Source: a virus
Lineage: Duplodnaviria; Heunggongvirae; Uroviricota; Caudoviricetes
Strand: one strand, 5' to 3'
Virus record (IMG/VR): IMGVR_UViG_2541047433_000025
DNA length: 13,457 bases
The position numbers were made by a program, and so were the translations under genes. Of the stretch, positions 1,237 through 13,457 are shown piece by piece; position 1 is the first letter of the stretch; the number at the start of each line of letters is the position of its first letter. The notes under the pieces are model-generated. The model did not search any database and was not told the DNA's origin. It saw only the letters and a list, made by a program, of their open reading frames with translations.

Positions 1237-1237
1237 A

Positions 1238-1453
1238 TCATGAGTCTTTGATAAACTGATTTATCTTTGGATAGTTATACCAGATAATCCCTCGCTTACT
1301 GTCTGGCTTCCCTAAAGGAGATACTCGTTTGAAGTGGAAGCCTTCCACCCAACAGTTCTGGCGGTATGCTTCAATTTGTCTGGCCCCCAGACCAGTGCGA
1401 AGCATCAGGCCGTATTCAACCATCCACTCTTCATTAAAGATTACTTGTGCCAT
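1238..1453 (-). CDS. ydaQ: Excisionase-like small protein (Rac ydaQ-like), 71 aa from ATG at 1453; track ORF extends to 1477
   Basis: Small ORF directly upstream of int; its stop (1238-1240) is 1 nt from the int start (xis-int arrangement). ATG at 1453 is preceded by GAGGTG. Function inferred from position and size, not from a recognised motif. Confidence 0.7.
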
Positions 1454-1552
1454 CGCATCACCTCTGGCAGGCGCCAATGTTAGACTTAAATTGACGCCCG
1501 ATGTTGATTATTAATAATCAGCTATGAAGTTTTAATTTGAATACAATGCAAT

Positions 1553-1741
1553 TCACGAGGACTGAAGTTTCTCGCAATTAAAATTTATCAGTTTTACTTT
1601 CTGCTCTCTGGAAACGCCTGCTTCTTTTTTACCTGAGAGCATTTTTTCGCATTCTGATTTCGTTAGTTTAGATTTTGAATATCTTGTCCAGTTAGTAGGA
1701 GTGCCACCTTCCTTTTCAATAGTGGCGGTAATTTTATACAT
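1553..1741 (-). CDS. ydaC: Small phage protein of unknown function, 62 aa from ATG at 1741 (alternative starts 1753 or 1813)
   Basis: Minus-strand ORF in the track (86 aa to the farthest start). The ATG at 1741 is preceded by GGAGGTG with about 5 nt spacing. Symbol assigned only by recalled Rac gene order between ydaQ and ralR. Confidence 0.5.
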   Translation of the reverse strand: MYKITATIEKEGGTPTNWTRYSKSKLTKSECEKMLSGKKEAGVSREQKVKLINFNCEKLQSS

Positions 1742-1778
1742 GAACACCTCCATTATTATTTCCAGTGGTTCGTTTATT

Positions 1779-1940
1779 TCATCGTTCGAGTGCTTCTTTT
1801 TCACTTCCACCATAACCGGTTCGGGATTCGCATCCGTTACACTTCGCTCGGTAATATCCTGAAATGGCTTTCACCGTTACTGATGGACAACCACAAAATG
1901 GACATGGTTTAACATTGTCATATCTCATAATTTTTCTCAT
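1779..1940 (-). CDS. ralR: Lar-type restriction-alleviation zinc-ribbon protein, 53 aa (not in the ORF track, below its length cutoff)
   Basis: Manual translation: MRKIMRYDNVKPCPFCGCPSVTVKAISGYYRAKCNGCESRTGYGGSEKEALER. Two Cys pairs (CPFCGC ... CNGC) form a zinc-ribbon pattern; an in-frame stop lies 4 codons upstream of the ATG. Directly downstream of recT as in the recE-recT-lar arrangement. No clear SD seen. Its 3' end overlaps the longest alternative start of the neighbouring ydaC-like ORF. Confidence 0.55.
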   Translation of the reverse strand: MRKIMRYDNVKPCPFCGCPSVTVKAISGYYRAKCNGCESRTGYGGSEKEALER

Positions 1941-1983
1941 AAAAATATTTCAAGTTGGCGGTGCATTACACCGCCAGGCTGAA

Positions 1984-2793
1984 TTATTCCTCTGAATTAT
2001 CGATTACACTGTATTCCCCGGTTAATACAGAGGAATCTGCAGGATCGATTGTCAGTGGTTCCTTTTCATCCATTGATACTGCACGCTGGATCTCAATTGA
2101 TACGGGCAGATATTTGAACAGGCGACGAATAGCCGTTTTCTTTGCCATTTCTTCCCAGTGAGTTACCCACGGCCCGTTATTACCAGCTTTACTCTGGCTG
2201 CGCACCAGCTCAATCTGTTTGCGCGTCATAACTTCAAACTGAGTACCTCCGTCTTTCAGTCTTGCGACAGCATAGACGTGGGTAACAGGGGCATCTTCGT
2301 TTTCTCCTGGGCGGTGTATTAACTTTTCATCAAGGCCAAATTCGAAATTAAACTCGTCACCTTCACGGACAACACGGGCTGACAAGCTGGCGATTTGACC
2401 TGAACGGCGAGCCAGATCAATCATGCCTCGATAGCCAATGATTAGCTGAACGTTTTTTTTACCGCTCTTTTCGTTTTTATTACCAAAAGGCAGTAAATAT
2501 GCATGACCGAGGGCGCTACCGGGCTCAAGTCCGAGCTGTGAACACTGTACGATTGCACTGACAAAACTCATAGTGTCACAGTTTCCTAACGCCGGAACTT
2601 TACGAATTTCTGTGGTGGCGATACGGATCATACGTTCAGCCGTCATATGGCGTGGAAGAGCTGCTGCCAGTTGCTCTTTCATTGATGGCTGGTTAATAAA
2701 ACTAATCACGTCGTTATTTTTAATTGCTGCTGGTGCACGGTTTCCCTGAGTTTTTTGCAGATCGGCTTTTGCGATTGGTGGTTGCTTAGTCAT
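1984..2793 (-). CDS. recT: RecT single-strand annealing protein, 269 aa
   Basis: Track ORF is 288 aa; the internal start [14 protein letters not shown]... matches the RecT N-terminus as I recall it and is preceded by AAGGAA. Start overlaps the recE stop by 8 nt. Confidence 0.93.
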
Positions 2794-5386
2794 TTGCATA
2801 TTCCTTAGCCCAGCGGGGCAGTGATAACGTCTTAATAGCTGGCCATTCATCGGTATTGAGGCAGTCAGCCAGGGTTCGCAGATTGCGGTGATATTCCAGC
2901 TGACCTGCCAGTTTTGCTTCTTCGCCCATCATGAAAATTTCAACCGGATAACGTCCGCATTCAATAGTTGTGCTGGCAACCAGAAAAACGAAAGTTGGCT
3001 GCACTCCAAACTGTGCTTCATAACCGTCACTGTAGAATGCATCCTGAACGTGATAGCGGTAGTCGTAATAAGCGGTTTTGAATCGTTGAATATCCGCCGT
3101 AGTTTTCACGTCCATGATCCAGTGAAATTCAGGGATAATTTTGTCCGGACGGCACCGACACAAAATTGCTGTTTCAGGATCTTCCCAGTAAATTGATGAT
3201 TCAGCGTGTCCGGCGCTTTCAACAAGCCATTGCCCCAGCGGCAAAGCCATAACGCTCTGATACATGAGTTCAATTTTCCGGCCTTCTTCGGCAGTGATAA
3301 CCGTTTTTCCTGTGCTTGCGCATTCCCTCAGAAACGCTTTCTCTTCTTCTTTTCCGGAGTTTGTCCGGCGGTTAAATTCAGGTGCTACGATAAAGCGGTT
3401 ACTGAATTCTTCCGGCTCAAGTACCCGGCAGTGGAAAGCGGTTCCTAAATCGAGCGTTTTTGTCTTTGTGGTGTCCACGGGGGCATTTTTACGCCACAAA
3501 TACAGTGCCGGAGTATCAGCAATGTCATCGAGCTGAGACTTACTGACACCGGGACCCGCGTGGTAATTCTCATTCGAAATTCCGTAATAAATACCTGGCT
3601 CTATGTCTTCTACGATTACGGGATCTGCGACTTCGCCAGTTTCATCACTGCAATCGCGATGCGGATCGCTGCCAGCATTCTCATTGTGCGGATGTTCAGC
3701 GCCTTCCATTTCCTCCGGATCATTTTCCTTAGCTTCAACCTGACTCTCTTCATCGAATGTTTCCTGGTATGTTGCGTCGCCCATCACCGCACCACAGTCA
3801 GGGCAGTTATCCCCGCCAGTCTGGCCGCAGGCATTGCAGGCTATTTCCGGTTCCTGTTGCACTACTGGCTCAGGTTGATTCATATCCGGGCTGGTTTTTT
3901 CCGTTTCTGGCTGGTTCTGGTACACACAATCGCGAGTCTGGATCCCCTTTACCCATTTCGGATCGTTCGGGTCGCTAATTCCGTCAACAAATTCACCACG
4001 TGATGCAGCAAGCAATTTATCGGCATCGACAGGATTTTTTGATGGAATGTTTTTCCGGGCTTCATGGAGTTCTGCCCGCAGTTCCTGATATTTCGCATCA
4101 ACAGAATTTACCTGTGACTGAGCATCCAGCGGCTGCGTGTCCTGATGATGTTCAGTTGCGTCCGGTTCCATTGTTTCAGCCTCTCCCTGTTCAACTGCCG
4201 TTGTTCCAGATGGTTGCGGTTTTTCTTCATCATCCTGTTTTCCTTCTTCTGTTACTCGCTGCGGCATCGGGGCAGAGGAGCGACCGCAGGCAATATCCAC
4301 GATTTCCGGATCAGGGTTGGCATGATCGGTTTCAGTCAGTACTTTGTTCAGATATTCAGTGACGTGCGCGGGGATGACCTCGATCCCAATTGGTGCTTCT
4401 TTTACGGACGCAACCACGATGGCGCGGGAATAATCCAGCCCGCCAGGCATGGTGATGAATTTGTCGCGGAAAACAGAAAAGGGCGGTTTATTTTCAGCGA
4501 TAATTTCCTCAATGCGTTTAGCGTGTGCCGGATGAAGGTTATAGATGTCCAGATCCATTGAACGGGCCAGTACGCCAGTGGCTACGTCGCGCGCCAGTGA
4601 CGTCAGATCGTGTACGAAACCTTCGCCGCGATCGGTGAGGTTTCCGCCGCCAGCATTAGCACCGGAAGCCGTGCGAGTGATGTGTGAAACACGATTACCC
4701 TTCATCCACTCTTTTGTCAGCAGTCCTCGATCGGTGTAGTCAGCGTTCAGGTATGCTTCGAAAAAAGCAGTTATCAGTCCCAGGTTTGAATTACCAGGAT
4801 TAGGGAAAACTTTGTCAGTGTCACGAACCAGTTTGTGGAGTTCGCGAATTTCCAGCGGGTCGAGCAGGCTGGTTTTGTGGGAAACAGCCAGGGCAGTAAC
4901 AGCCGGTAGTTCTTCAGCCCGAGCAATGTGTAATGCCTGGAGTCCGTCGCGTGAAACGTGCGTTACCGGTTTTTCGCTGCCGTGTTGAGCAAGCCAACGA
5001 ATGGGCAGTTCCTGGCCAGAAATTGGGAGTAGCATATTCTCCTCAATCTCAGTCATGTCTTCGCCGTTGACGTTGGTATTGCCTTGATAGTGAGCGTTGT
5101 CTGGTGCTGCTCCCGGTTTTAGTTCCCATGTCATGGAGTCTTTGCTGAGTTGATAGCGTTCACTCCAGGTAAAATCGATCTCACCTTCAGCGGGCAGGTC
5201 ATTAACGACAGGAAAATTCGTGGCAACAGCTTTAAAATAGCTGCTCAGTTTTTTACCTGACTTAACGATCAGGTAGTCCAGAGTGGCACAGGTCGATTCA
5301 AAATCGTTGCTTGCCCACAGGACGACGTCAGGTTCACCGGATGATTTTTTCGCTTTCCGTAACAGGAAGAGTGGTTTTGTGCTCAT
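2786..5386 (-). CDS. recE: RecE exonuclease VIII, 866 aa, full length
   Basis: 866-aa minus-strand ORF, the length of full-length RecE. Long acidic low-complexity N-terminal and middle region followed by a C-terminal nuclease region. Position upstream of recT. Confidence 0.93.
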
Positions 5387-5457
5387 TGTTTTTTAACCTC
5401 AACTCAGATTAAAATTCGTTTTGTTCAGTGAATGATCTTGCCGGATACACACTGTTC

Positions 5458-5482
5458 ATAGCCTGCGCCATACGCAGGCTAT
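5458..5482. terminator. Perfect 10-bp stem hairpin ATAGCCTGCG-CCATA-CGCAGGCTAT between racC and recE
   Basis: Stem read directly from the sequence. On the plus strand it is followed by the T-rich TTCTTTCAGATTT; on the minus strand (the coding direction) no U-run follows. Function uncertain. Confidence 0.3.
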
Positions 5483-5487
5483 TTCTT

Positions 5488-5763
5488 TCAGATTTCACCT
5501 TTTAATTTCATTGCAATTAGAGTTGCCAGAAATTCGGCTTTTTTTTCTGTGGGCAGATTCTTTCCGATATGCACCAGGCACATTTTTTTGACACCTTCAT
5601 CAAGTGTTTTTACGTTGCCTGATGGACCATCGATATCAACCACAGTGAATGGGGTTTCTTTATTTTCTGTTTTAATTACGTAGCCAATGCGCTTTCCTTC
5701 CAGATTCACCTCGTGAACAATGTCATCGGTAGTTACAACAGTGGCTTCATAATTGGTAATCAT
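5488..5763 (-). CDS. racC: RacC-like small protein, 91 aa from ATG at 5763 (track ORF extends to 5811)
   Basis: ATG at 5763 is preceded by AAGGAG. Position between recE and ydaE matches Rac synteny. Function unknown. Confidence 0.8.
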   Translation of the reverse strand: MITNYEATVVTTDDIVHEVNLEGKRIGYVIKTENKETPFTVVDIDGPSGNVKTLDEGVKKMCLVHIGKNLPTEKKAEFLATLIAMKLKGEI

Positions 5764-5837
5764 GTTTTTCTCCTTAATTAAGGTTGAGCGAATACCTGCC
5801 ATTTCTGGCATAAATTCAGTTTCGAATAGTCAATTAA

Positions 5838-6008
5838 TTAAAGTTCATGTGCCATCTGGTCTTTTTCGGCACAAGCTTCACTGCAATATTTTCTCGGTTC
5901 GTCTTTTGATAAAATCCCGTGCATGAAGTGAAGCATTCTTTCAATAGCTTTGCTTTCTTCAACGTCTTTTTTGCAAAGGTGGTAAGCACATTTTATTTTC
6001 TTAGTCAT
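5838..6008 (-). CDS. ydaE: YdaE-like small cysteine/histidine-rich protein, 56 aa (not in track)
   Basis: Manual translation: [56 protein letters not shown]. Start ATG overlaps the kilR stop by 1 nt (ATGA). An alternative start 2 codons upstream (MVM...) is possible. Confidence 0.7.
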   Translation of the reverse strand: MTKKIKCAYHLCKKDVEESKAIERMLHFMHGILSKDEPRKYCSEACAEKDQMAHEL

Positions 6009-6229
6009 CACCATGACTCCGCCTTTACAGGTAAACCATCACGACCGAGGAAGACTTTAATCATGCGGTCAGTAATGCATGTTTTTGTGGTCAGGTTACG
6101 AATATATAGTTTTCGCTTTTTAATATTGTTTGCCGAGGCAATATATGTCCGGCCTTCATGAAGAACATAATCGCCAGGAGTCACACACTGACGTGGTATT
6201 TCATCAGTTCCGAAGTGATGTGCAATCAT
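6008..6229 (-). CDS. kilR: KilR-like cell-division inhibitor, 73 aa from ATG at 6229
   Basis: Track ORF is 77 aa; the internal start [14 protein letters not shown]... gives 73 aa. Position in the leftward operon between ydaE and the immunity region matches Rac. Confidence 0.8.
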
Positions 6230-6670
6230 AATTATCTCCATTTTTACAAATGAACTTTGTTGATGCGGTGCCTGGTGCCTCCAGGTGACTGCAACCAGTT
6301 AACAATTACAGTCGGCTTTCCCACCCAAACCAATAAGGACTAACATGACTTTTAACTGTGCCACGTGCGCTTAGCCGCATTCACCGCATCACAAAATTCA
6401 CTTTAAAAAGGGCGGACATCAGCCGAACTTCAAGAAAAAAACTGATGCCGCCAGGACTACACACAGCAATGTCGTTATTTACAACCGGAGGCGCACTCCC
6501 ACCATTTAAATTTAACAGACAAGACCGACTCTTTATGGATATCGGAAATGCGCCTTCGTGTTGTGCCCGGTTTTATTTCACCACCTCCGGGCTTCGGTGG
6601 TCTCGGCTATACCCCTACAGCGAGAGCTTGTGTTAACATTTCAATACCCTTACAGTTGAGAGTTATTGAT

Positions 6671-7159
6671 ATGTTGGATGTATTTACTCCATTGTTGAAA
6701 CTTTTTGCTAACGAGCCACTCGAAAGACTTATGTATACGATTATCATTTTTGGTCTCACTCTCTGGCTGATACCGAAAGAGTTTACTGTCGCATTCAATG
6801 CTTATACTGAAATACCTTGGCTCTTTCAGATTATCGTTTTTGCCTTTTCTTTCGTGGTCGCCATTTCCTTCTCAAGATTGCGAGCACATATTCAAAAGCA
6901 TTATTCATTACTACCAGAGCAACGAGTATTGCTTCGTTTATCTGAGAAAGAAATCGCTGTATTTAAAGATTTCCTTAAAACAGGAAATCTTATTATCACT
7001 TCTCCTTGCCGTAACCCGGTTATGAAAAAATTAGAACGGAAGGGCATCATTCAACATCAGAGTGATAGCGCAAACTGTTCTTATTATCTCGTCACCGAAA
7101 AATACTCCCATTTTATGAAGTTATTCTGGAACAGCAGGAGTAGACGTTTTAATCGTTAG
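6671..7159 (+). CDS. sieB: SieB-like superinfection exclusion protein, 162 aa from ATG at 6671
   Basis: Track ORF is 203 aa from an upstream start; the internal start MLDVFTPLLKLF... gives 162 aa with hydrophobic segments (IIIFGLTLWLIP, LFQIIVFAFSFVVAISF) consistent with a membrane protein. Only plus-strand gene in a leftward block, as in Rac. Confidence 0.8.
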   Translation: MLDVFTPLLKLFANEPLERLMYTIIIFGLTLWLIPKEFTVAFNAYTEIPWLFQIIVFAFSFVVAISFSRLRAHIQKHYSLLPEQRVLLRLSEKEIAVFKDFLKTGNLIITSPCRNPVMKKLERKGIIQHQSDSANCSYYLVTEKYSHFMKLFWNSRSRRFNR

Positions 7160-7311
7160 CTTACTGTGTGCTTCTCCAACCATCGGCGCGCACCAGTTTC
7201 GGTTTTAAATGTTTTGCTTTTGGTATACGTCATGGCAGTGAACGTTCCATCCTGGTTGGGGAACACGCCGCACACCAGGGATTCGTTGTTGCCGAGGTCG
7301 ATTTTTTGCAT
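7156..7311 (-). CDS. ydaF: YdaF-like small protein, 51 aa (not in track)
   Basis: Manual translation: MQKIDLGNNESLVCGVFPNQDGTFTAMTYTKSKTFKTETGARRWLEKHTVS. Its 3' end overlaps the sieB 3' end by 4 nt (convergent). Symbol by synteny and length. Confidence 0.55.
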   Translation of the reverse strand: MQKIDLGNNESLVCGVFPNQDGTFTAMTYTKSKTFKTETGARRWLEKHTVS

Positions 7312-7321
7312 TTTGCGAATC

Positions 7322-7456
7322 TCACATCTTGTTGCTACGTATAGCGACTTCTGCCTGCCAGAGATCCCAGTCGTTGCTGCGTAAAGCCTGCACAGCCTGG
7401 TTGTAAGTGATACCGCAACAATCCATCAAATACTGAACTACTTCGTAATGCACCAT
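7322..7456 (-). CDS. ydaG: YdaG-like small protein, 44 aa (not in track)
   Basis: Manual translation: MVHYEVVQYLMDCCGITYNQAVQALRSNDWDLWQAEVAIRSNKM. Lies between racR and ydaF on the minus strand. Symbol by synteny and length. Confidence 0.55.
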   Translation of the reverse strand: MVHYEVVQYLMDCCGITYNQAVQALRSNDWDLWQAEVAIRSNKM

Positions 7457-7620
7457 CTTATCTATCCCCTTAACGCCGGGTGGCGGAACTAACTGCTGCA
7501 CTGCAAAATTTGAATCCCGCCGTCATGTTCATACGCCTCGGGCTGGCTACTTAACCCCTGACCACTGCCTGGTAACTCGAAGTATTGCCCGGCGTTCTGT
7601 GGGGCGGGGTGGGTTGGTAG

Positions 7621-7680
7621 GTATATAATGTACTTTGTGTTCATCATTGTAAAGTACTTTAAGTACATTTTATGTATAAA
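7621..7680. promoter_or_regulatory. Second operator-like cluster between racR and ydaG
   Basis: AATGTACTTT (7627-7636), perfect palindrome AAAGTACTTT (7651-7660) and AAGTACATTT (7661-7670), the same GTAC-core motif as in the racR-ydaS operator. TATATAAT at 7623-7630 (plus) and TTTACA-N17-CATTAT on the minus strand. Confidence 0.4.
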
Positions 7681-7743
7681 AAAATGAGACGGGATAAAGT
7701 GAAGCACAAACCCGGAGGGGGACGCTACCGGATTTATGCTGGT

Positions 7744-8163
7744 TTAAGAGGCTTTTTGTTTTTTCTTTCGTGCTAACTCTTCGTAAATTGCATTGTACTT
7801 CTGTTTTTTCTCCTCAAGAGTTTTTAAAAGTTCATCTGTCTCACTGTCAGGGAGCTCGTCCAGAAGGTCAATGATGATTTTTTGTCTTGGATTTAACTCC
7901 TGATAGAAACGTATCTGTCCACTTTCTTCTGTATCCTCTCCCAAAAGATAGGTTGGTGTTGTTCCAATGAGTGTTGCTAATTCCCTTAATTTCTCTCGGC
8001 GAGGAATTGTTTCACCATTAAACCATTTGCTAACCGCTTTTGGTGTTAATTTCATTCGACGGGCAATTTCTGCCTGCCTTCCATGTTGTTCATAACCAGC
8101 GTTTTCACAGGCTAGCGCAAGCCTACTGGCGAACTCTTTACGCGCTTTATCTTCATGAACCAT
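7744..8163 (-). CDS. racR: Prophage repressor, XRE-family HTH (RacR-like), 139 aa
   Basis: Helix-turn-helix segment QAEIARRMKLTPKAVSKWFNGETIP. Transcribed divergently from ydaS across a short operator region. An in-frame stop 19 codons upstream prevents any N-terminal extension in this sequence. No SD upstream of the ATG. Confidence 0.85.
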   Translation of the reverse strand: MVHEDKARKEFASRLALACENAGYEQHGRQAEIARRMKLTPKAVSKWFNGETIPRREKLRELATLIGTTPTYLLGEDTEESGQIRFYQELNPRQKIIIDLLDELPDSETDELLKTLEEKKQKYNAIYEELARKKKQKAS

Positions 8164-8242
8164 AAGTTCAATGATATTCGCTCTTGAATGTACTGTCAGT
8201 TCTGTTATAGCATGTACTCAAAGTTCACATTGTGAGGGTGAT
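8164..8242. promoter_or_regulatory. Divergent promoter/operator region between racR and ydaS
   Basis: 79-bp intergenic region with two copies of ATGTACT (8188-8194, 8212-8218) and two of AAGTTCA (8164-8170, 8219-8225). Candidate rightward promoter TTGAAT (8184-8189) / TATAGC (8206-8211). Candidate leftward promoter CTGACA (rc of 8194-8199) / TATCAT (rc of 8171-8176), which would start transcription at or next to the racR ATG. Confidence 0.55.
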
Positions 8243-8497
8243 ATGAACCAGAAAACACTTGAAGATGTAATCAAAACTGTTCGCGTTTCTGTTGTGGCCG
8301 ACGTTTGTGGTGTCAGCCAAAGAGCAATCTACAAATGGATGGATAACGGTAAATTGCCTCGCACAGAATATACCGGCGAAACAAATTACGCTGAAAAAAT
8401 CGCTCATGCATCAAACGGATTATTTTCTGCCGATGCAATTTTAACTATTGGCAGAAATAAAACTACTACGAAAAAGCTGATGGGAGTTGATTCATGA
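8243..8497 (+). CDS. ydaS: YdaS-like small protein, 84 aa from ATG at 8243 (track ORF starts at 8171)
   Basis: ATG at 8243 is preceded by GAGGGTG. The 8171 start would leave no room for a promoter after the racR start. Stop overlaps the ydaT start (ATGA). Confidence 0.7.
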   Translation: MNQKTLEDVIKTVRVSVVADVCGVSQRAIYKWMDNGKLPRTEYTGETNYAEKIAHASNGLFSADAILTIGRNKTTTKKLMGVDS

Positions 8498-8916
8498 AAA
8501 TCAAGCATGAGCACATCGAATCAGTGTTGTTAGCCCTGGCAGCCGAAAAAGGGCAGGCGTGGGTCGCTAACGCAATTACTGAAGAATATCTGCGCCAGGG
8601 GGGCGGCGAATTGCCCCTGGTACCAGGCAAGGACTGGAACAATCAGCAGAATATCTATCATCGTTGGTTGAAAGGTGAAACGAATGCGCAAAGGGAAAAA
8701 ATTCAGAAACTGATCCCTGCGGTTCTGGCAATTCTTCCTCGCGAGCTGCGTCACCGACTCTGCATCTTCGATACCCTGGAACGCCGTGCATTACTGGCGG
8801 CACAGGATGCACTGAGTACGGCAATTGATGCGCATGATGATGCAGTCCAGGCCGTTTACCGTAAAGCACATTTCAGCGGCGGCGGTTCTCCTAGCGATTC
8901 TGTCGTAGTGCATTGA
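8494..8916 (+). CDS. ydaT: YdaT-like protein, 140 aa
   Basis: Track ORF, GGGAG SD, translationally coupled to ydaS. Length and position match Rac ydaT. Confidence 0.8.
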   Translation: MKIKHEHIESVLLALAAEKGQAWVANAITEEYLRQGGGELPLVPGKDWNNQQNIYHRWLKGETNAQREKIQKLIPAVLAILPRELRHRLCIFDTLERRALLAAQDALSTAIDAHDDAVQAVYRKAHFSGGGSPSDSVVVH

Positions 8917-8929
8917 TTGAAATTAATCG

Positions 8930-8951
8930 TACCGAACTGTTTTGTTCGGTA
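8930..8951. repeat. Inverted repeat TACCGAAC-N6-GTTCGGTA between ydaT and ydaU
   Basis: Perfect 8-bp arms with a 6-nt loop. No T-run follows, so it is not a convincing intrinsic terminator; may be a protein-binding site or RNA stem. Confidence 0.4.
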
Positions 8952-8961
8952 TCAGTTAAAT

Positions 8962-8980
8962 GTAACGCTGCGAGCGTTAC
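8962..8980. repeat. 19-bp palindrome GTAACGCTGCGAGCGTTAC, copy 1 of 3, just upstream of the ydaU start
   Basis: Perfect 8-bp inverted arms around 3 nt, read directly from the sequence. Confidence 0.7.
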
Positions 8981-8993
8981 AAGGTGAAAACAA

Positions 8994-9782
8994 ATGGCTT
9001 CAAACTGGATAAAGCTCGAAGTTATTACGCCGGATAAGCCGGAAATATTCAGGCTTGCTGAGATTCTGAATATTGATCCAGATGCCGCATTAGGGAAAGT
9101 CATTCGCTTCTGGGCATGGGCGGATCAACAAATGATAGACGGTAACGCAGAGTGTAACGCTCGCGGCGTTACAAAAAGTGCAATAGATCGCATCACTTTT
9201 ATGGCTGGTTTTGCTGATGCGTTAATTCAGGTTGGATGGCTGGTCGAAACTAATGGTGTGTTGTCGCTTCCTAACTTTGAGCGCCATAACGGGAAAAGCT
9301 CTAAAAAACGGGCGGTTACAAACGAGAGAGTAACAAAAATACGAGAACTGAAACGAAAAGGTAACGCTGCCAGCGTTACAAAAACGGATCAAAAAGCGTT
9401 ACCAGAGGAAGAGAAAGAGGAAGATATAAATACTTATCTCCCCCTAAATCCCCCTCGCCAAAAACGAGCGTCTAAAAAATTCGAACCGGAGGCTATCGAG
9501 CTGCCTGACTGGTTGCCGGAAACACTCTGGCATGAGTGGGTTCAGTTCAGGCAGGCATTGCGAAAACCGATTCGAACGGAGCAGGGCGCTAACGGGGCGA
9601 TACGGGAGCTGGAAAAATTCCGCCAGCAGGGTTTTTCACCTGAGCAGGTGATTCGACACAGCATCGCCAATGAATACCAGGGCTTGTTCGCGCCGAAAGG
9701 TGTTCGGCCAGAGACGTTGCTCCGACAGATTAACACCGTCTCGTTTCCGGACAGTGCGATCCCGCCAGGCTTCAGGGGGTAA
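8994..9782 (+). CDS. ydaU: Phage replication initiation protein, lambda O-like role (YdaU-like), 262 aa
   Basis: Track ORF directly upstream of the DnaC-like gene. Contains internal palindromic repeats (see repeat features). An in-frame stop 3 codons upstream fixes the start at 8994. Confidence 0.75.
   Translation: MASNWIKLEVITPDKPEIFRLAEILNIDPDAALGKVIRFWAWADQQMIDGNAECNARGVTKSAIDRITFMAGFADALIQVGWLVETNGVLSLPNFERHNGKSSKKRAVTNERVTKIRELKRKGNAASVTKTDQKALPEEEKEEDINTYLPLNPPRQKRASKKFEPEAIELPDWLPETLWHEWVQFRQALRKPIRTEQGANGAIRELEKFRQQGFSPEQVIRHSIANEYQGLFAPKGVRPETLLRQINTVSFPDSAIPPGFRG
9154..9172. repeat. 19-bp palindrome GTAACGCTCGCGGCGTTAC, copy 2 of 3, inside ydaU
   Basis: 7-bp inverted arms GTAACGC/GCGTTAC around 5 nt; an extra half-site GTAACGC at 9142-9148. 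Confidence 0.7.
9361..9379. repeat. 19-bp palindrome GTAACGCTGCCAGCGTTAC, copy 3 of 3, inside ydaU
   Basis: 9-bp inverted arms around 1 nt; GTTAC half-sites also at 9315-9319 and 9330-9334. Confidence 0.7.
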
Positions 9783-9788
9783 CAGACC

Positions 9789-10535
9789 ATGAAAAATATT
9801 GCGACAGGCGGCGTTCTGGAACGTATCCGCAGACTGGCCCCGCCACATGTAACCGCGCCATTCAGGACGGTGGCGGAGTGGCGCGAGTGGCAACTTGCAG
9901 AAGGCCAGAAACGTTGTGAGGAGATCAACCGTCAGAATCGTCAGTTGCGGGTGGAAAAAATCCTGAATCGCTCCGGCATACAGCCGTTGCACCGCAAATG
10001 CTCGTTTGCGAATTACCAGGTGCAGAACGACGGCCAGCGATACGCGTTGAGTCAGGCGAAATCTATCGCTGACGAACTGGTTACCGGATGCACAAATTTC
10101 GCGTTCAGCGGAAAACCTGGTACCGGAAAAAACCATCTGGCGGCGGCTATCGGGAATCGCCTGCTGAAAGATGGCCAGACAGTGATTGTGGTTACCGTGG
10201 CTGATGTTATGAGCGCCCTGCACGCCAGCTATGACGACGGGCAGTCAGGCGAAAAATTTTTGCGGGAACTGTGCGAAGTTGATCTGCTGGTTCTTGATGA
10301 AATTGGTATTCAGCGCGAGACGAAAAACGAGCAGGTGGTACTGCACCAGATTGTTGATCGCCGGACAGCGTCAATGCGCAGCGTGGGGATGCTGACAAAC
10401 CTGAACTATGAGGCCATGAAAACATTGCTCGGCGAGCGGATTATGGATCGCATGACCATGAACGGCGGGCGCTGGGTGAATTTTAACTGGGAGAGCTGGC
10501 GCCCGAATGTTGGTCAGCCAGGTATTGAGAAGTAA
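9789..10535 (+). CDS. ydaV: DnaC-like AAA+ helicase loader (lambda P-like role), 248 aa
   Basis: Walker A motif [15 protein letters not shown] and Walker B-like [16 protein letters not shown]. Follows the initiator gene. Confidence 0.88.
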
Positions 10536-10557
10536 TTTTTACCGGGAGGAAATTTTA

Positions 10558-11316
10558 ATGGAGACCGTTTTTGACGCACTGAAAGCGATGGGAAAAGCCA
10601 CGTCGGTAGAACTGGCTACGCGACTTGATATCAGTCGAGAAGAAGTGCTGAACGAGCTGTGGGAACTGAAAAAGGCTGGCTTCGTTGATAAAAGCGTATA
10701 CACCTGGCGCGTGGCTGATAACAACGTTCAGCAGGAACAGCCAGCGCCAGAGCTGCCGGAAGAAACCACCATGGCAACAGTAGCGAAAATCTCAGAGTGC
10801 GATTTAACCGCGACGATTGAACAACGTGGCCCACAAACGGCGGATGAGTTGGCTACATTGTTCGGTACCACATCACGCAAAGTAGCTTCAACGCTGGCAA
10901 TGGCTATCAGCAAAGGACGCCTGATTCGCGTAAACCAGAACGGTAAATTTCGTTACTGCATACCGGGCGATAATTTACCAGCAGAGCCGAAAGCAGCATC
11001 GGTAGCGGAAACTGATGGTAAGGCCTTTCCTCAGCCCACAGGTGTTGCGTTACCAGTACAGGAGGCTGCAACACAGGAAGATATTAAAACAGAAACGGTG
11101 GCGGACATTGTGCAGTCGCTGCCATCGTTTACTGAAACGCGAGCGGATGACCTGGTTTTACCATCGCTGCATATGGCAAACCGCGAACTGCGTCGGGCGA
11201 AAAATCATGTCCAGAAGTGGGAGCGAGTCTGCGCCGCGCTGCGGGAGCTGAACAAGCACCGGGATATTGTTCGACAGATTTTCGATTCCTCCAGTCGTAT
11301 TGTGTCGGAAAAGTGA
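10558..11316 (+). CDS. ydaW: YdaW-like phage protein of unknown function, 252 aa from ATG at 10558
   Basis: Track ORF (269 aa from an upstream start); ATG at 10558 is preceded by GGGAGG. Lies immediately after ydaV as in Rac. Appears full length here. Confidence 0.6.
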
Positions 11317-11331
11317 TTGCCGGAGGCACCT

Positions 11332-11754
11332 ATGGCAAAAGTATTTACACCAGAAGAGCGGGAAAAAATTAAAGGGCAGGTTGTTGAACTTGTACGTCTG
11401 AGCGGTCGCGAGACGTTACGGGCTCTGGAGGCTAAAACCGGTGCATCAAGGTATTACATAAGCACTCTCGCCAGAGAACTGGTCGCCAGTGGTGATGTTT
11501 ACAATTCAGGCTACGGATTATTCCCGTCTGAGCAGGCGCGTAAAGACTGGCAAAACGCCCGCAAAAAACTATCAAGGGCAAAGGTGAAGAAACCGGTTGT
11601 GGTTGATCCGGATCTTATCTGGTCATTACCAGACGGAGAAATACGCCGCTACGACAGGCGTCTGAACATAATCTGTAGCGAGTGCCGGAAGAGCGAAGCT
11701 ATGCAGCGTGTACTGGCTTTCTATCAGGGTAATTTTCAGAAGGTGCTGTTGTGA
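11332..11754 (+). CDS. Hypothetical phage protein, 141 aa, possible HTH-like segment
   Basis: ATG at 11332 preceded by GGAGG at 5 nt spacing (track ORF starts at an upstream TTG, 11317). Segment GRETLRALEAKTGASRYYISTLARELV resembles a DNA-binding helix pair; C-terminal CSEC pair. No family recognised. Confidence 0.6.
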   Translation: MAKVFTPEEREKIKGQVVELVRLSGRETLRALEAKTGASRYYISTLARELVASGDVYNSGYGLFPSEQARKDWQNARKKLSRAKVKKPVVVDPDLIWSLPDGEIRRYDRRLNIICSECRKSEAMQRVLAFYQGNFQKVLL

Positions 11755-11859
11755 GCCAAATTAACAATCGGAACTTCGTGAAGAGAAAGCATAATCCAAA
11801 TCTGAATAATTAAGTTCAGCACTGTAAATAAAATTTAATCCTTAACTGGAGGTATATTT

Positions 11860-12072
11860 ATGTTAAATACACAGAAAGCCATTAATGCGGAAAAATATAA
11901 CGAGTGGGCAAGAAAATTCTCTGAGCAGATTTTTAAAATTACTGGCGATGAGAATGCGGCAAAAAATGAATTAGAACCGTGGACGCCTGAAGGAGCCGAC
12001 CCAAATTATTGCTGGAGGGAGGTTGATCCAGTTGATGCTGCAAATGAAGCTATGAGTTATCACAACGATTAA
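11860..12072 (+). CDS. Hypothetical small protein, 70 aa, in an AT-rich island
   Basis: Track ORF with SD TGGAGGT about 8 nt upstream, own AT-rich upstream region, and a GC-rich GAAA-loop hairpin 10 nt after the stop. Family unknown. Confidence 0.6.
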   Translation: MLNTQKAINAEKYNEWARKFSEQIFKITGDENAAKNELEPWTPEGADPNYCWREVDPVDAANEAMSYHND

Positions 12073-12081
12073 TGTCAGGAG

Positions 12082-12099
12082 GCCGCCCGAAAGGGCGGT
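12082..12099 (+). terminator. GC-rich hairpin GCCGCCC-GAAA-GGGCGGT 10 nt after the stop of the 70-aa gene
   Basis: 6-7 bp GC stem with a GAAA tetraloop. The downstream sequence is AT-rich but has no clean T-run, so this is a possible terminator or mRNA-stabilising stem. Confidence 0.35.
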
Positions 12100-12323
12100 A
12101 ATGAATGGTCACATTATTTAGAAAAAATATCCGCGAAAGAGTAGAACAACAGAATTTCTGTTTCTCATTCTGTTTATCGTGTTGATGATACCGATATCCC
12201 CGTTAATCCTAGTCTGGATAATCGGAAAAATAATTGAGCCAGTTATTGAATTGTATAACGACGTGGTATGGGCGTCATTCAACACACTGCACAATAAAAT
12301 TAATCCGTATAAGGAAAACTGAT

Positions 12324-12587
12324 ATGGCAACTTTGACAAAAAAAGAACGGGCATGGTTGAACGAATTACAGGAAGTTCTTGATCGCTGTCCATCACCGAA
12401 AAAAATTGGCTTTTACACCATTGGCGATAAAAGCATTTACCTGTATGACCTACGCCGCATGGATGAAATCATGGAGGCTCTTGATAATCGTTCGTCGATG
12501 GATTGGTGTGTTGCTGTTCATGATATGAATGCAGGGTTTGATGAAAAGATTTTGTTCCCCTCATCAGTTGAAAGCACTGCGGGTTAA
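12324..12587 (+). CDS. Hypothetical small protein, 87 aa
   Basis: ATG at 12324 preceded by AAGGAAA (track ORF starts upstream at 12234). Stop is 10 nt before the next gene start. Family unknown. Confidence 0.55.
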   Translation: MATLTKKERAWLNELQEVLDRCPSPKKIGFYTIGDKSIYLYDLRRMDEIMEALDNRSSMDWCVAVHDMNAGFDEKILFPSSVESTAG

Positions 12588-12597
12588 GGAGTAACAC

Positions 12598-12759
12598 ATG
12601 ACCACTATTACCAAAGAACGTATTGAATTGTTCATTAAAAATCCGGTTGAAAACGGGCTTACCCGTGGTGAACAAATGGAACTGGCACGGATTGCGCTGG
12701 CATCGCTGGAAGCAGAGCCAGTTGGTGATTTTTATGAATACAAACCGGATGACTGGTAG
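12598..12759 (+). CDS. Hypothetical small protein, 53 aa (not in track)
   Basis: Manual translation: MTTITKERIELFIKNPVENGLTRGEQMELARIALASLEAEPVGDFYEYKPDDW. AAGGAG SD 7 nt upstream of the ATG. Family unknown. Confidence 0.55.
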   Translation: MTTITKERIELFIKNPVENGLTRGEQMELARIALASLEAEPVGDFYEYKPDDW

Positions 12760-12837
12760 CAGCGTTCGGCTGGAGATAAAGCGCCAAAATGGACGCCACC
12801 CTATGCCGTTTTTCCAGCGCCCGTAGTGCCGGAAGAA

Positions 12838-13083
12838 ATGGATTTGCTTACATGCCATCTCGATGGTGTAACTGAAACATATGCTGAGGGATGGAACGCT
12901 TGCCGCGCTGCCCTGCTTCAGGGCAAAGGGGAGCCCGGGAAACAAGTTCGCGAATTGACAATGCTGGTTAAACAATTGGTTAGTCAACTGAAGAAAGCGA
13001 AACCGGGCTGCAAATTGCCGGATAAAGTGATGGACTACCTGGAGCGAAGCGGACTTATAAGCGTGGAGGATGTTTCACGATGA
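12838..13083 (+). CDS. Hypothetical small protein, 81 aa from ATG at 12838 (85 aa if the GTG at 12826 is used)
   Basis: Track ORF 12826-13083. Start is ambiguous and the SD is weak (GGAAG). Stop overlaps the start of a downstream 27-codon ORF (ATGA). Confidence 0.5.
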   Translation: MDLLTCHLDGVTETYAEGWNACRAALLQGKGEPGKQVRELTMLVKQLVSQLKKAKPGCKLPDKVMDYLERSGLISVEDVSR

Positions 13084-13163
13084 CCTGGCCTGAAGCATTC
13101 ACAACGGTAGGAATTGCGATGGCGGTGGCGCTGGTTGTGTATTCGATTTGCCGCTGGGGATAA
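13080..13163 (+). CDS. Candidate 27-aa hydrophobic micro-protein (MTWPEAFTTVGIAMAVALVVYSICRWG)
   Basis: Manual translation. ATG overlaps the upstream stop (ATGA); GGAGGA lies about 10 nt upstream. Central stretch GIAMAVALVVYSI could form one transmembrane helix. Short ORFs can arise by chance, so confidence is low. Confidence 0.3.
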   Translation: MTWPEAFTTVGIAMAVALVVYSICRWG

Positions 13164-13316
13164 AAACGGTTTGCGGGAAAAGGATAGTTAAGTAGAATTG
13201 CTGCGGGTGCTTGAGGCTATCTGCCTCGGGCATGAACACCAACGGCAGATAGAGAAAAGCCCCAGTTAACATTACGCGTCCTGCAAGACGCTTAACATTA
13301 ATCTGAGGCTCAATCC

Positions 13317-13373
13317 ATGCTGAACACATGTAGGTTAGCCTCTTACGTGCCGAAAGGCAAGGAGAAGCAGGCT
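13317..13373 (+). other. Mok-like in-frame upstream start and leader of the hok gene (19-codon N-terminal extension MLNTCRLASYVPKGKEKQA)
   Basis: ATG at 13317 is in frame with the hok ATG at 13374. The MLNTCR... extension resembles the Mok reading frames of chromosomal hok loci as I recall them. Confidence 0.5.
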
Positions 13374-13457
13374 ATGAAGCAGCAAAAGGCGATGTTAATC
13401 GCCCTGATCGTCATCTGTTTAACCGTCATAGTGACGGCACTGGTAACGAGGAAAGAC
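13374..13457 (+). CDS. hok: Hok/Gef-family type I toxin, 5' part only (first 28 codons; truncated by the window end)
   Basis: Manual translation MKQQKAMLIALIVICLTVIVTALVTRKD matches the conserved Hok/Gef N-terminal transmembrane region (closest to HokD/RelF as recalled). AAGGAG SD upstream. Confidence 0.8.
   Translation, partial: MKQQKAMLIALIVICLTVIVTALVTRKD

What the first reader, a model, noticed from the sequence alone, without database searches (positions are those of the whole stretch)
12598..13163. Compact unnamed three-ORF cluster ending in a 27-aa hydrophobic peptide, directly upstream of the hok leader
Three co-oriented ORFs (53 aa, 81-85 aa and 27 aa) that I cannot assign to any family. 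The first has a strong SD; the last overlaps the previous stop (ATGA) and encodes MTWPEAFTTVGIAMAVALVVYSICRWG, a likely single-pass membrane micro-protein. Small membrane peptides coupled to small soluble partners occur in toxin-antitoxin, abortive-infection and exclusion modules. This is the best candidate in the window for an undescribed accessory function, but the idea is speculative.
Basis: inference. Interest (0 to 1): 0.6.

Follow-up and report, generated by a model that had tools for sequence, protein, structure and literature searches.

The report
Split prophage gene plus conserved micro-gene
The "three-ORF cluster" is really one ordinary prophage accessory gene broken by a stop-codon mutation, followed by a genuine, mostly unannotated 27-codon gene for a tiny membrane protein of unknown function that matching DNA places in about 30% of complete E. 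coli genomes.

Summary
But ORF1 (12598-12759) and ORF2 (12826/12838-13083) share one reading frame and are separated only by a TAG at 12757-12759. Read through, the 161-aa product matches PHROG 660, a mosaic Eaa/Ead-Ea22-like accessory family of unknown function, end to end. Related genes with the same central and C-terminal parts carry TAT (Tyr) at that codon. So these two ORFs are one gene with an amber mutation. An identical allele sits in the O157:H7 prophage Sp10 and in roughly 165 complete genomes.

The 27-codon ORF (13080-13163) is a real gene:
- It is an ~85-nt portable module found behind at least four different upstream gene ends and in front of more than ten different downstream sequences.
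- In 111 of 121 contexts it starts at an ATGA overlap, and it almost always has a GGAGG-type SD.
- Synonymous changes are enriched only in its own frame (odds ratios 3.7 and 5.9).
- No stop-creating variants were seen, and indels are mostly in-frame.
- It has a 19-residue hydrophobic core.

It occurs in Stx phages, other lambdoid prophages, large plasmids and Avunavirus phages. It is independent of hok/sok. No toxin-antitoxin, abortive-infection or defence signature was found. Its function is unknown.

The parts
12586..12591 (+). Shine-Dalgarno site (AAGGAG) of the interrupted Eaa-like gene
   Evidence: Read directly from the sequence. It lies 6 nt upstream of the ATG at 12598.
12598..13083 (+). 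One Eaa/Ead-like accessory gene (PHROG 660, 161 codons) inactivated by an in-frame amber codon.
   Evidence: A single-frame translation has only one internal stop. The read-through product matches PHROG 660 at positions 3-192 of 193, E 1.6e-44. Intact 162-167-aa relatives exist.
12598..12759 (+). ORF1: the N-terminal 53 codons plus the TAG. It is the only part likely to be translated efficiently.
   Evidence: Annotated as ECs_1951 / WP_000208018.1 in O157. The same N-terminal module occurs as a free-standing 55-aa ORF in phage 689R5.
12757..12759 (+). Amber codon, a TAT(Tyr)-to-TAG nonsense mutation at codon 54
   Evidence: Eight fetched loci have TAT here (DDWYQRS). Seven, including the window and O157 Sakai and EDL933, have TAG. 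P0090's apparent Gln at this position is a gene-caller recoding artefact, because its DNA has TAG.
12826..13083 (+). ORF2: the C-terminal remnant of the same gene (GTG at 12826, or ATG at 12838 as in RefSeq WP_000365100.1)
   Evidence: Same frame as ORF1. Matches the C-terminal end of PHROG 660 at positions 130-192 of 193. Annotated as an 81-aa hypothetical protein in EDL933.
13065..13070 (+). Shine-Dalgarno site (GGAGGA) of the micro-gene, embedded in the last codons of the upstream gene
   Evidence: Read from the sequence. A GGAGG/AGGAG-type site lies 7-11 nt upstream of the ATG in 45 of 46 distinct upstream sequences, whatever the upstream gene.
13080..13163 (+). 27-codon micro-gene for a single-pass hydrophobic peptide, MTWPEAFTTVGIAMAVALVVYSICRWG. 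Its start overlaps the upstream stop as ATGA (13080-13083).
   Evidence: Discrete ~85-nt homology module. Frame kept in diverged phages. Synonymous excess only in this frame. ATGA overlap in 111 of 121 contexts. Kyte-Doolittle mean 2.1 over residues 6-24.
13171..13198 (+). Probable hok promoter (TTGCGG, 16-nt spacer, TAGAAT). This is a separate transcription unit and not part of the micro-gene.
   Evidence: Inferred from its position just upstream of the hok mRNA 5' region at 13205 and its near-identity to the sequence upstream of hokW in 933W. The consensus scan did not report it.
13205..13457 (+). hok/sok locus: leader, mok start at 13318, hok ATG at 13375. It runs off the end of the window.
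   Evidence: Rfam RF01794 at 13205-13379, 113.5 bits. Near-identical to hokW/mokW/sokW of 933W.

Best explanation
The region holds two genes of a Rac-family prophage right-hand early operon. This is the Sp10/CP-933R type, here with an intact hok locus.

(1) 12598-13083 is one member of the highly mosaic Eaa/Ead-Ea22-like accessory family (PHROG 660), knocked out by a TAT-to-TAG nonsense mutation at codon 54. ORF1 is the truncated N-terminal product. ORF2 is a remnant with no good ribosome-binding site.

(2) 13080-13163 is a genuine 27-codon gene for a single-pass inner-membrane micro-protein. It travels as a self-contained cassette made of an SD, an ATG overlapping the upstream stop, 27 codons and a stop. 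The cassette rides at the 3' end of Eaa/DUF551/Ea22-like early genes.

Shown by the evidence: the frame is under purifying selection, the translation signals are conserved, and the cassette is portable and independent of hok.

Inferred:
- It is transcribed with the phage early operon, since no promoter was found upstream of it in the scanned stretch from 12200. It would therefore be made on infection or induction rather than in the quiescent lysogen.
- It is translated by termination-reinitiation coupling plus its own SD.
- It inserts as one helix, with W3 and W26 at the two membrane interfaces and R25 probably on the cytoplasmic side.
- Its sequence stays almost constant while its gene neighbours change. 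So it probably acts on its own, either on a conserved host membrane component or by self-association through its conserved G11/A13/A15/A17 small-residue faces, rather than as a dedicated partner of the upstream protein.
- In this window the upstream amber mutation probably lowers its translation by removing coupling.
For: **Split gene**
- One frame with one TAG.
- End-to-end PHROG 660 match only for the fused product.
- Tyr at that codon in the intact 162-167-aa relatives that share this central segment.
- The TAG allele is identical in O157 Sakai and EDL933 and is 100% identical in about 165 complete genomes (estimated).

**Micro-gene**
- blastn finds an ~85-nt module whose ends coincide with the ATG and the stop, in many phage contexts.
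- The frame is intact at 76-81% nucleotide identity in 933W, BP-4795 and Av-05.
- Sample anchored on the 5' end: 27 of 50 possible synonymous single-base variants were observed against 32 of 133 non-synonymous or stop variants (odds ratio 3.7, p = 1.8e-4). None of 8 possible stop variants appeared. The other two frames gave odds ratios near 1.
- Sample anchored on the 3' end: 28 of 44 against 27 of 118 (odds ratio 5.9, p = 2e-6). ATG was kept in 126 of 133 sequences.
- Most length variants are in-frame.
- ATGA overlap in 111 of 121 contexts. SD present in 45 of 46 distinct upstream sequences.
- Upstream genes have at least four unrelated C-terminal ends. Downstream is hok in 52 of 113 contexts and more than ten other sequences elsewhere.
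- Hydrophobic core at residues 6-24 in all four variants tested.
- Matching DNA is present in 1,638 of 5,426 complete E. coli genomes, in 93 phage records and in 181 plasmids.
- No significant RNA structure: z = +0.95.
Against: - There is no direct evidence of expression. The peptide is absent from the held supplementary files of the two EHEC translatome papers checked. Those cultures were, as far as I know, not induced for prophages.
- Purifying selection is only moderate. About a quarter of the possible non-synonymous variants are observed, and W3, P4 and F7 vary.
- Some copies are disrupted. POCJ13 has a TAG at codon 3, and 689R5-type copies have a 1-nt deletion at the start.
- The IMG/VR contigs sampled are not phylogenetically independent, so the p-values are approximate.
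- Nothing tested here speaks to function, topology or target.
Confidence: 0.8

Rival explanations
1. The 84-nt block is conserved as DNA or RNA, not as protein. It would be a recombination "boundary" sequence between lambdoid modules, or an upstream control element of hok/sok, and the open frame would be incidental.
For: - Homology breakpoints sit exactly at its two ends, as expected of a module linker.
- It abuts the hok promoter in 46% of contexts.
- Amino-acid identity between distant copies is not much higher than nucleotide identity.
Against: - Synonymous excess appears only in this frame, no stop-creating variants were seen, and indels are mostly in-frame.
- The SD and ATG are conserved behind unrelated upstream genes.
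- 54% of contexts have no hok.
- The Rfam hok/sok model starts 42 nt downstream of the ORF's stop.
- No stable RNA fold: z = +0.95.
Confidence: 0.07
2. The peptide is a membrane-damaging toxin of the type I toxin or holin kind, used for host killing, abortive infection or exclusion, with the neighbouring products or an RNA as its antidote.
For: - Its size and hydrophobicity resemble Hok, DinQ, ShoB and Ibs-type peptides (my own knowledge).
- Alternating small residues G11/A13/A15/A17 could support self-assembly.
- It often neighbours toxin-antitoxin loci: hok here and in 933W, another toxin-antitoxin pair in ArgO145.
Against: - No PADLOC, Pfam or NCBIfam match.
- No antisense promoter or structured leader was found.
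- It carries a strong, exposed-type SD and coupling to an upstream gene, rather than the translational silencing typical of type I toxins.
- The supposed protein partners are one pseudogene here and unrelated genes elsewhere.
Confidence: 0.12
3. The TAG is not a defect. ORF1 and ORF2 would be deliberately separate products, or a read-through pair working with the peptide as a three-part unit.
For: - The TAG allele is widespread and 100% conserved in STEC genomes.
- N-terminal modules of this family do exist as free-standing ~55-aa ORFs, as in 689R5.
- RefSeq annotates both pieces as CDSs.
Against: - All TAG copies fetched are the same haplotype in the same prophage type, so their spread reflects descent and not selection.
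- Every relative that shares this central segment reads straight through with Tyr at that codon.
- I saw no convincing SD before the GTG at 12826 or the ATG at 12838.
- A second pseudogene, a frameshifted DUF4014 gene, lies about 300 nt upstream, which is consistent with local decay.
Confidence: 0.08

Closest known systems
Eaa / Ead-Ea22-like mosaic accessory proteins of lambdoid phages (lambda Ea22, P22 EaA, DUF551 proteins such as YfdS; PHROG 660)
   Same: - The interrupted gene matches PHROG 660 end to end.
- Its relatives in the protein database are named Eaa protein or DUF551 domain-containing protein.
- The modular make-up matches the mosaicism described for Ea22 variants in PMC10834534: a shared N-terminal module, a central motif that is GWNACRAALL here, and swappable C-terminal ends.
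   Different: - This copy is a pseudogene (TAG at codon 54).
- It lacks the DUF551 Pfam domain itself.
- No function is known for PHROG 660.
Small single-pass inner-membrane proteins of enterobacteria (KdpF, AcrZ, MgtS, CydX, PmrR) that bind and modulate larger membrane proteins
   Same: - The size, about 27-50 aa.
- One hydrophobic helix with aromatic residues at both ends.
- A short ORF that annotation usually misses.
   Different: - No significant sequence similarity. The best hit was KdpF at E 0.024, below its cut-off.
- It is carried by phages and is mobile.
- No partner is known.
- The resemblance is functional analogy recalled from my own knowledge, not a tested relationship.
Type I toxin peptides (Hok, DinQ, ShoB, Ibs, TisB)
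   Same: A short hydrophobic peptide. Here it lies immediately next to a hok/sok locus.
   Different: - It lies outside the hok/sok RNA model.
- No antisense RNA or long structured leader was found.
- It has an SD and is translationally coupled to an upstream gene.
- It occurs without hok in 54% of contexts.
Phage-genome small-gene families of unknown function (for example PHROG 4612)
   Same: A conserved phage-borne small ORF with a predicted transmembrane helix.
   Different: Only a weak, non-significant match to PHROG 4612 (E 0.019). No PHROG family clearly contains this peptide.

Membership tests
PHROG 660 (Eaa-like mosaic phage protein) | Profile match across the whole length of the protein | tested here: met
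   The fused 161-aa product matches positions 3-192 of 193, E 1.6e-44. ORF1 alone matches only the N-terminal end and ORF2 only the C-terminal end.
PHROG 660 (Eaa-like mosaic phage protein) | Uninterrupted reading frame (a functional member) | tested here: not met
   TAG at 12757-12759 where intact relatives have TAT.
DUF551 (PF04448) | Pfam domain match above the gathering score | tested here: not met
   No PF04448 hit for ORF1, ORF2 or the fused product. Only mosaic relatives carry the domain.
Protein-coding small ORF | Frame-specific excess of synonymous change, and absence of stops and frameshifts, across homologues | tested here: met
   Odds ratios 3.7 (p = 1.8e-4) and 5.9 (p = 2e-6) in frame and about 1 or lower in the other frames. 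None of 12 possible stop variants was seen. Indels are mostly multiples of 3. A few copies are disrupted.
Protein-coding small ORF | Conserved start codon and ribosome-binding site | tested here: met
   ATG in 126 of 133 sequences. SD in 45 of 46 distinct upstream sequences. ATGA overlap in 111 of 121 contexts.
Protein-coding small ORF | Direct evidence of translation (ribosome profiling, mass spectrometry or tagging) | tested here: inconclusive
   The peptide is not in the held supplementary files of the EHEC translatome papers or the Enterobacteriaceae microproteome preprint. No dataset from induced prophages was available.
Single-pass membrane micro-protein | A hydrophobic stretch of about 19 or more residues above the Kyte-Doolittle membrane threshold, kept across variants | tested here: met
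   The best 19-residue window scores 2.03-2.28 at residues 6-24 in all four diverged variants. No dedicated topology predictor was available.
hok/sok type I toxin-antitoxin locus | Lies within the hok mRNA / sok RNA unit | tested here: not met
   RF01794 starts at 13205, 42 nt after the micro-ORF's stop. The micro-ORF occurs without hok in 61 of 113 contexts.
Known anti-phage defence, abortive-infection or toxin-antitoxin systems (PADLOC-DB) | Match of any component to a defence-system profile | tested here: not met
   No families matched for the fused protein, the peptide or the upstream 87-aa protein at E up to 1.
Type I toxin | A cis-encoded antisense RNA or structured leader that silences translation, and toxicity on expression | tested here: inconclusive
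   No antisense promoter near the micro-ORF and no significant fold were found. Simple scans cannot exclude an antisense RNA, and toxicity cannot be tested here.

The most novel reading that the evidence does not exclude
The 27-aa peptide is a host-directed membrane effector made early in infection or induction by Stx phages, other lambdoid prophages, phage-like plasmids and rV5-like lytic phages. It would either bind a conserved enterobacterial inner-membrane protein or assemble through its GxAxAxA faces. Its effect would be on phage development, for example superinfection exclusion, the lysis-lysogeny balance or Stx-phage yield. That would make it a new functional family of phage micro-proteins hidden in well-studied genomes such as 933W and VT2-Sakai.
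Probability: 0.3. Interest if true: 0.65.

Novelty: new member of a known kind. Interest (0 to 1): 0.4.

Why it matters
The split gene matters only for annotation. ECs_1951 and its downstream "hypothetical protein" in O157:H7 are two halves of one pseudogene.

The micro-gene is the useful result. It is a 27-codon membrane-protein gene under selection. It was missing from every curated phage record and RefSeq genome region inspected here. Matching DNA is present in about 30% of complete E. coli genomes, at up to 7 places per genome. It occurs in the medically important Stx phages 933W, VT2-Sakai and BP-4795.

It is a cheap, well-defined target for small-protein work through tagging, deletion and expression. 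It also marks the 3' boundary of the mosaic Eaa/Ea22 gene arrays, which have been linked to the lysis-lysogeny decision of Stx phages.

Tried and rejected
- **Direct protein search with the 27-mer.** I replaced it with tblastn, an exact look-up and a 40-aa extended query.
- **The apparent cluster of the peptide with 121-aa DUF551 proteins.** This is a clustering and naming artefact. Those proteins do not contain the peptide.
- **The first sample of 80 IMG/VR loci.** It was chosen by peptide identity, so its synonymous-only pattern is circular. I discarded it and used nucleotide-anchored samples instead.
- **P0090, which looked like an intact allele with Gln.** Its DNA has TAG.
- **AlphaFold2 on an intact homologue with 36 sequences.** It gave pLDDT 58 and pTM 0.27, so I ran no fold search.
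- **PDB sequence search.** It found nothing.
- **Literature and supplement searches for the peptide motif.** They found nothing.
- **An SD-occluding hairpin at 13062-13079.** It is predicted, but covariation does not exceed shuffles.
- **K-12 prophage CPS-53 (yfdS, a DUF551 gene).** It has no copy of the peptide.
- **The one-genome-per-species scan.** It found the gene only in E. coli and Shigella flexneri, plus tiny contaminant-like contigs and one doubtful 48%-identical hit.

Full report
**Where the window comes from.** Bases 1-13262 are 99.9% identical to prophage Sp10 of E. coli O157:H7 Sakai and to its EDL933 counterpart. This is a Rac-family element next to ttcA. Its gene order is intR, xisR, ralR, recT, recE, ydaE, kilR, sieB, a repressor and cro-like pair, ydaT, replication genes, DUF1627 and DUF977. 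The finding therefore lies in the rightward early operon, downstream of the replication genes. At 13262 the O157 genomes switch to a DNA cytosine methyltransferase module. The window instead continues into an intact hok locus nearly identical to hokW of phage 933W.

**Checking the observation.** The three ORFs are present as described. ORF1 has AAGGAG 6 nt before its ATG. The 27-codon ORF starts at an ATGA overlap with the upstream stop. The hok leader follows, with Rfam RF01794 matching 13205-13379 at 113.5 bits.

Translating 12598-13083 gives a single 161-codon frame with one internal stop, the TAG at 12757-12759.

**The first two ORFs are one broken gene.**
- The read-through product matches PHROG 660 over positions 3-192 of 193 (E 1.6e-44). 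ORF1 alone matches only the N-terminal ends of several PHROGs, and ORF2 only the C-terminal ends.
- Phage vB_EcoS-666R9 carries an intact 167-aa gene that is nearly identical from residue ~35 onward and reads DDW-Y-QRS at the critical codon.
- Among fetched loci, eight have TAT and seven have TAG. All TAG copies, including the window, Sakai and EDL933, share the N-terminal module MTTITKERIELF and are the same haplotype.
- Further intact relatives of 162-167 aa have other N-terminal modules and also have Tyr there.
- One database protein seemed to have Gln at the position, but its DNA has TAG. The gene caller had recoded TAG as Gln.
- From the spread of hits, roughly 165 of 5,426 complete E. 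coli genomes carry the 100%-identical TAG allele. About 110 more carry an alternative-N-terminus form, annotated in nearly all listed rows as a single CDS.
- RefSeq annotates the pieces as two hypothetical proteins.
- The family is known under the names Eaa protein and DUF551 domain-containing protein. More than 5,000 relatives scored E <= 1e-5. Its modular shuffling matches what has been described for Ea22 variants (PMC10834534).
- No function is known. Pfam, NCBIfam, PADLOC and PDB sequence searches gave nothing.
- An AlphaFold2 model of an intact homologue was too poor to use (pLDDT 58).
- A frameshifted DUF4014 gene about 300 nt upstream shows that this stretch of the prophage is decaying.

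**The 27-codon ORF is a real gene.**

*It is a discrete module.* blastn of 13060-13210 against phages returns many hits whose ends coincide with the ATG and the stop (query 20/21 to 104/105), at 76-98% identity and in different surroundings.

*The frame survives divergence.*
- 933W: MTWPEAFANVGTVMAVVLVVYSICRWR.
- BP-4795: MNWPEAFTAVGVAIAVAFILYSLFRWG.
- Av-05 and 18-1-2 (Vequintavirinae, genus Avunavirus): MTWPEAFTTVGVVMAVAFAVYSVCRWG.
- In all of these records the interval is an unannotated gap of about 84 nt.

*Selection acts on the frame.* The first set of 80 IMG/VR loci had been chosen by peptide identity, so I did not use it. I drew two samples anchored only on nucleotides at one end of the ORF and analysed the other end.

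| Sample | Synonymous variants seen / possible | Non-synonymous or stop seen / possible | Odds ratio | p | Stop variants seen / possible |
|---|---|---|---|---|---|
| 5'-anchored | 27 / 50 | 32 / 133 | 3.7 | 1.8e-4 | 0 / 8 |
| 3'-anchored | 28 / 44 | 27 / 118 | 5.9 | 2e-6 | 0 / 4 |

- The same test in the other two frames gave odds ratios of 1.1 and 0.9 for the 5'-anchored sample. It gave 1.2 and 0.46 for the 3'-anchored sample.
- In the 3'-anchored sample the start codon was ATG in 126 of 133 sequences.
- Most length variants are in-frame: deletions of 3, 6 and 12 nt and GCGATG-repeat expansions.
- The recurrent frameshift is a 1-nt deletion at the ATGA junction, as in 689R5. A few database variants with frame-shifted tails also occur.
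- POCJ13 has a TAG at codon 3.
- The sampled contigs are related to one another, so the p-values are approximate.

*Translation signals are kept.* The upstream stop overlaps the ATG as ATGA in 111 of 121 distinct contexts. A GGAGG/AGGAG site lies 7-11 nt upstream in 45 of 46 distinct upstream sequences, although it is encoded by unrelated protein ends (...VEDVxR...PPQEVNQ...IEREVNQ...KKGMNQ).

*The product is a membrane helix.* Residues 6-24 score 2.0-2.3 on the Kyte-Doolittle scale in four diverged variants. Across 43 peptide variants E5, A6, Y21, S22 and W26 are invariant. M1, G11, A13, A15, A17, L18 and C24 are nearly so.

*It is not an RNA element.* The RNA of the region has no unusual structure (z = +0.95).

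**Distribution.**
- DNA matching the micro-gene is present in 1,638 of 5,426 complete E. coli genomes, at up to 7 places per genome.
- tblastn finds it in 93 phage records, including 933W, VT1/VT2-Sakai, BP-4795, Min27, ArgO145 and Avunavirus phages.
- At least 488 IMG/VR stretches encode it.
- It is on 181 plasmids. They are mostly ~80-130-kb non-mobilizable replicons of E. coli, Salmonella and E. fergusonii, plus one Klebsiella plasmid. The one inspected carries an Ead/Ea22 gene array.
- A one-genome-per-species scan found it only in E. coli and Shigella flexneri, apart from contaminant-like contigs and one doubtful distant hit.
- The protein database holds only 25-59-aa versions from E. coli, E. 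albertii, Shigella and Salmonella. They are called hypothetical protein, bacteriophage protein or, wrongly, "DUF551 domain-containing protein, partial". There are no fusions to larger proteins.
- The one K-12 prophage locus examined, CPS-53 around yfdS, lacks it.
- Full-text and supplement searches for the peptide found nothing.

**Relation to its neighbours.**
- The upstream genes are all members of the mosaic Eaa/DUF551/Ea22-like world but have at least four different C-terminal ends.
- Downstream, hok's promoter and leader follow in 52 of 113 contexts. The rest show more than ten unrelated sequences, several of which look by eye like G+C-rich terminator hairpins.
- In ArgO145 a different toxin-antitoxin pair follows. 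In O157 Sp10 a truncated hok leader and a methylase follow.
- The micro-gene thus typically closes an early transcription unit, after which unrelated accessory genes are found. Its link to hok is positional, not functional.

**How it probably works.**
- Shown: it is a portable coding cassette for one hydrophobic helix, under selection and with conserved initiation signals.
- Inferred, expression: no plus-strand promoter was detected from 12200 up to the ORF. It is therefore probably expressed with the phage early operon on infection or induction.
- Inferred, translation: it is probably translated by termination-reinitiation assisted by its own SD.
- Inferred, mode of action: the peptide stays nearly constant while both flanks vary. 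An autonomous action on a conserved host membrane component, or self-association through the G11/A13/A15/A17 small-residue faces, is therefore more likely than a dedicated partnership with the upstream protein.
- Inferred, effect of the amber mutation: ribosomes stop about 320 nt upstream in this window, so coupling is probably lost. A weak hairpin at 13062-13079 would then cover the SD. That hairpin is not supported by covariation.
- I cannot say whether the peptide is toxic, excludes other phages or tunes a host protein.

**Comparison with what is known, and verdict.**
- The interrupted gene is an ordinary pseudogene of a known, functionally obscure family.
- The micro-gene belongs to a known kind of thing, small phage-borne membrane proteins that annotation misses. 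I found no name, family or study for it.
- It fails membership of hok/sok and of any PADLOC system.
- Interest is moderate, 0.4. The gene is widespread, selected and present in clinically relevant phages, but its function is unknown and its kind is familiar.

Noticed in passing
window 13163-13262, compared with L004 3864-3963 (Sakai Sp10): O157:H7 Sp10/CP-933R keeps the hok promoter and about the first 58 nt of the hok leader, then switches to a DNA cytosine methyltransferase module. The window keeps a complete hokW-like locus. The O157 copy is therefore a truncated hok locus.
   Followed up: partly
window ~12105-12322: The DUF4014-family gene just upstream is annotated as frameshifted in EDL933. 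It is a second pseudogene within about 500 nt of the amber-interrupted gene.
   Followed up: no
L259 971-1447 (Logan contig SRR27176603_314); protein P0090: The database protein shows Gln where the DNA has TAG, so a gene caller applied a TAG-to-Gln recoded genetic code to an ordinary E. coli prophage contig. Artefacts of this kind can hide nonsense alleles.
   Followed up: yes
proteins P0012, P0023, P0025, P0030, P0041, P0042 and others: NCBI names contig-edge fragments of the 27-aa peptide "DUF551 domain-containing protein, partial", although the peptide has no DUF551 domain. A 90% cluster also lumps the peptide with 121-aa DUF551 proteins that do not contain it.
   Followed up: partly
window 13062-13079: A 7-bp hairpin (-6.9 kcal/mol in the centroid structure) would sequester the micro-gene's SD. 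It is paired in 93% of cells across 12 variants of this initiation region, but covariation does not exceed shuffles.
   Followed up: yes
L008 1201-1290 and L009 1201-1290 (phages 18-1-2 and Av-05, Vequintavirinae, Avunavirus): The pair of an Eaa-like gene and the micro-gene also occurs in rV5-like phages at about 79% nucleotide identity. This implies old exchange of the pair between temperate lambdoid phages and this lineage, which is generally regarded as virulent.
   Followed up: partly
L001 2779-3287 (phage vB_EcoS-689R5): The N-terminal module of ORF1 (MTTITKERIELF...) exists there as a free-standing 55-aa ORF, followed through a start/stop overlap by a 114-aa Eaa-like gene. The truncated 53-aa product in the window might therefore retain some activity.
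   Followed up: no
peptide positions 11-17 (window 13110-13130): Alternating small residues G11, A13, A15 and A17 are each kept in 40-42 of 43 variants, while the intervening positions 12 and 14 vary more. This GxAxAxA pattern recalls tight helix-packing motifs (my own knowledge) and is untested.
   Followed up: no
L257 1501-2220 (phage ArgO145): In ArgO145 the micro-gene is followed by a different annotated toxin-antitoxin pair on the opposite strand. Together with hok here and the methylase in O157, this suggests that the site just after the micro-gene often holds unrelated accessory genes.
   Followed up: no
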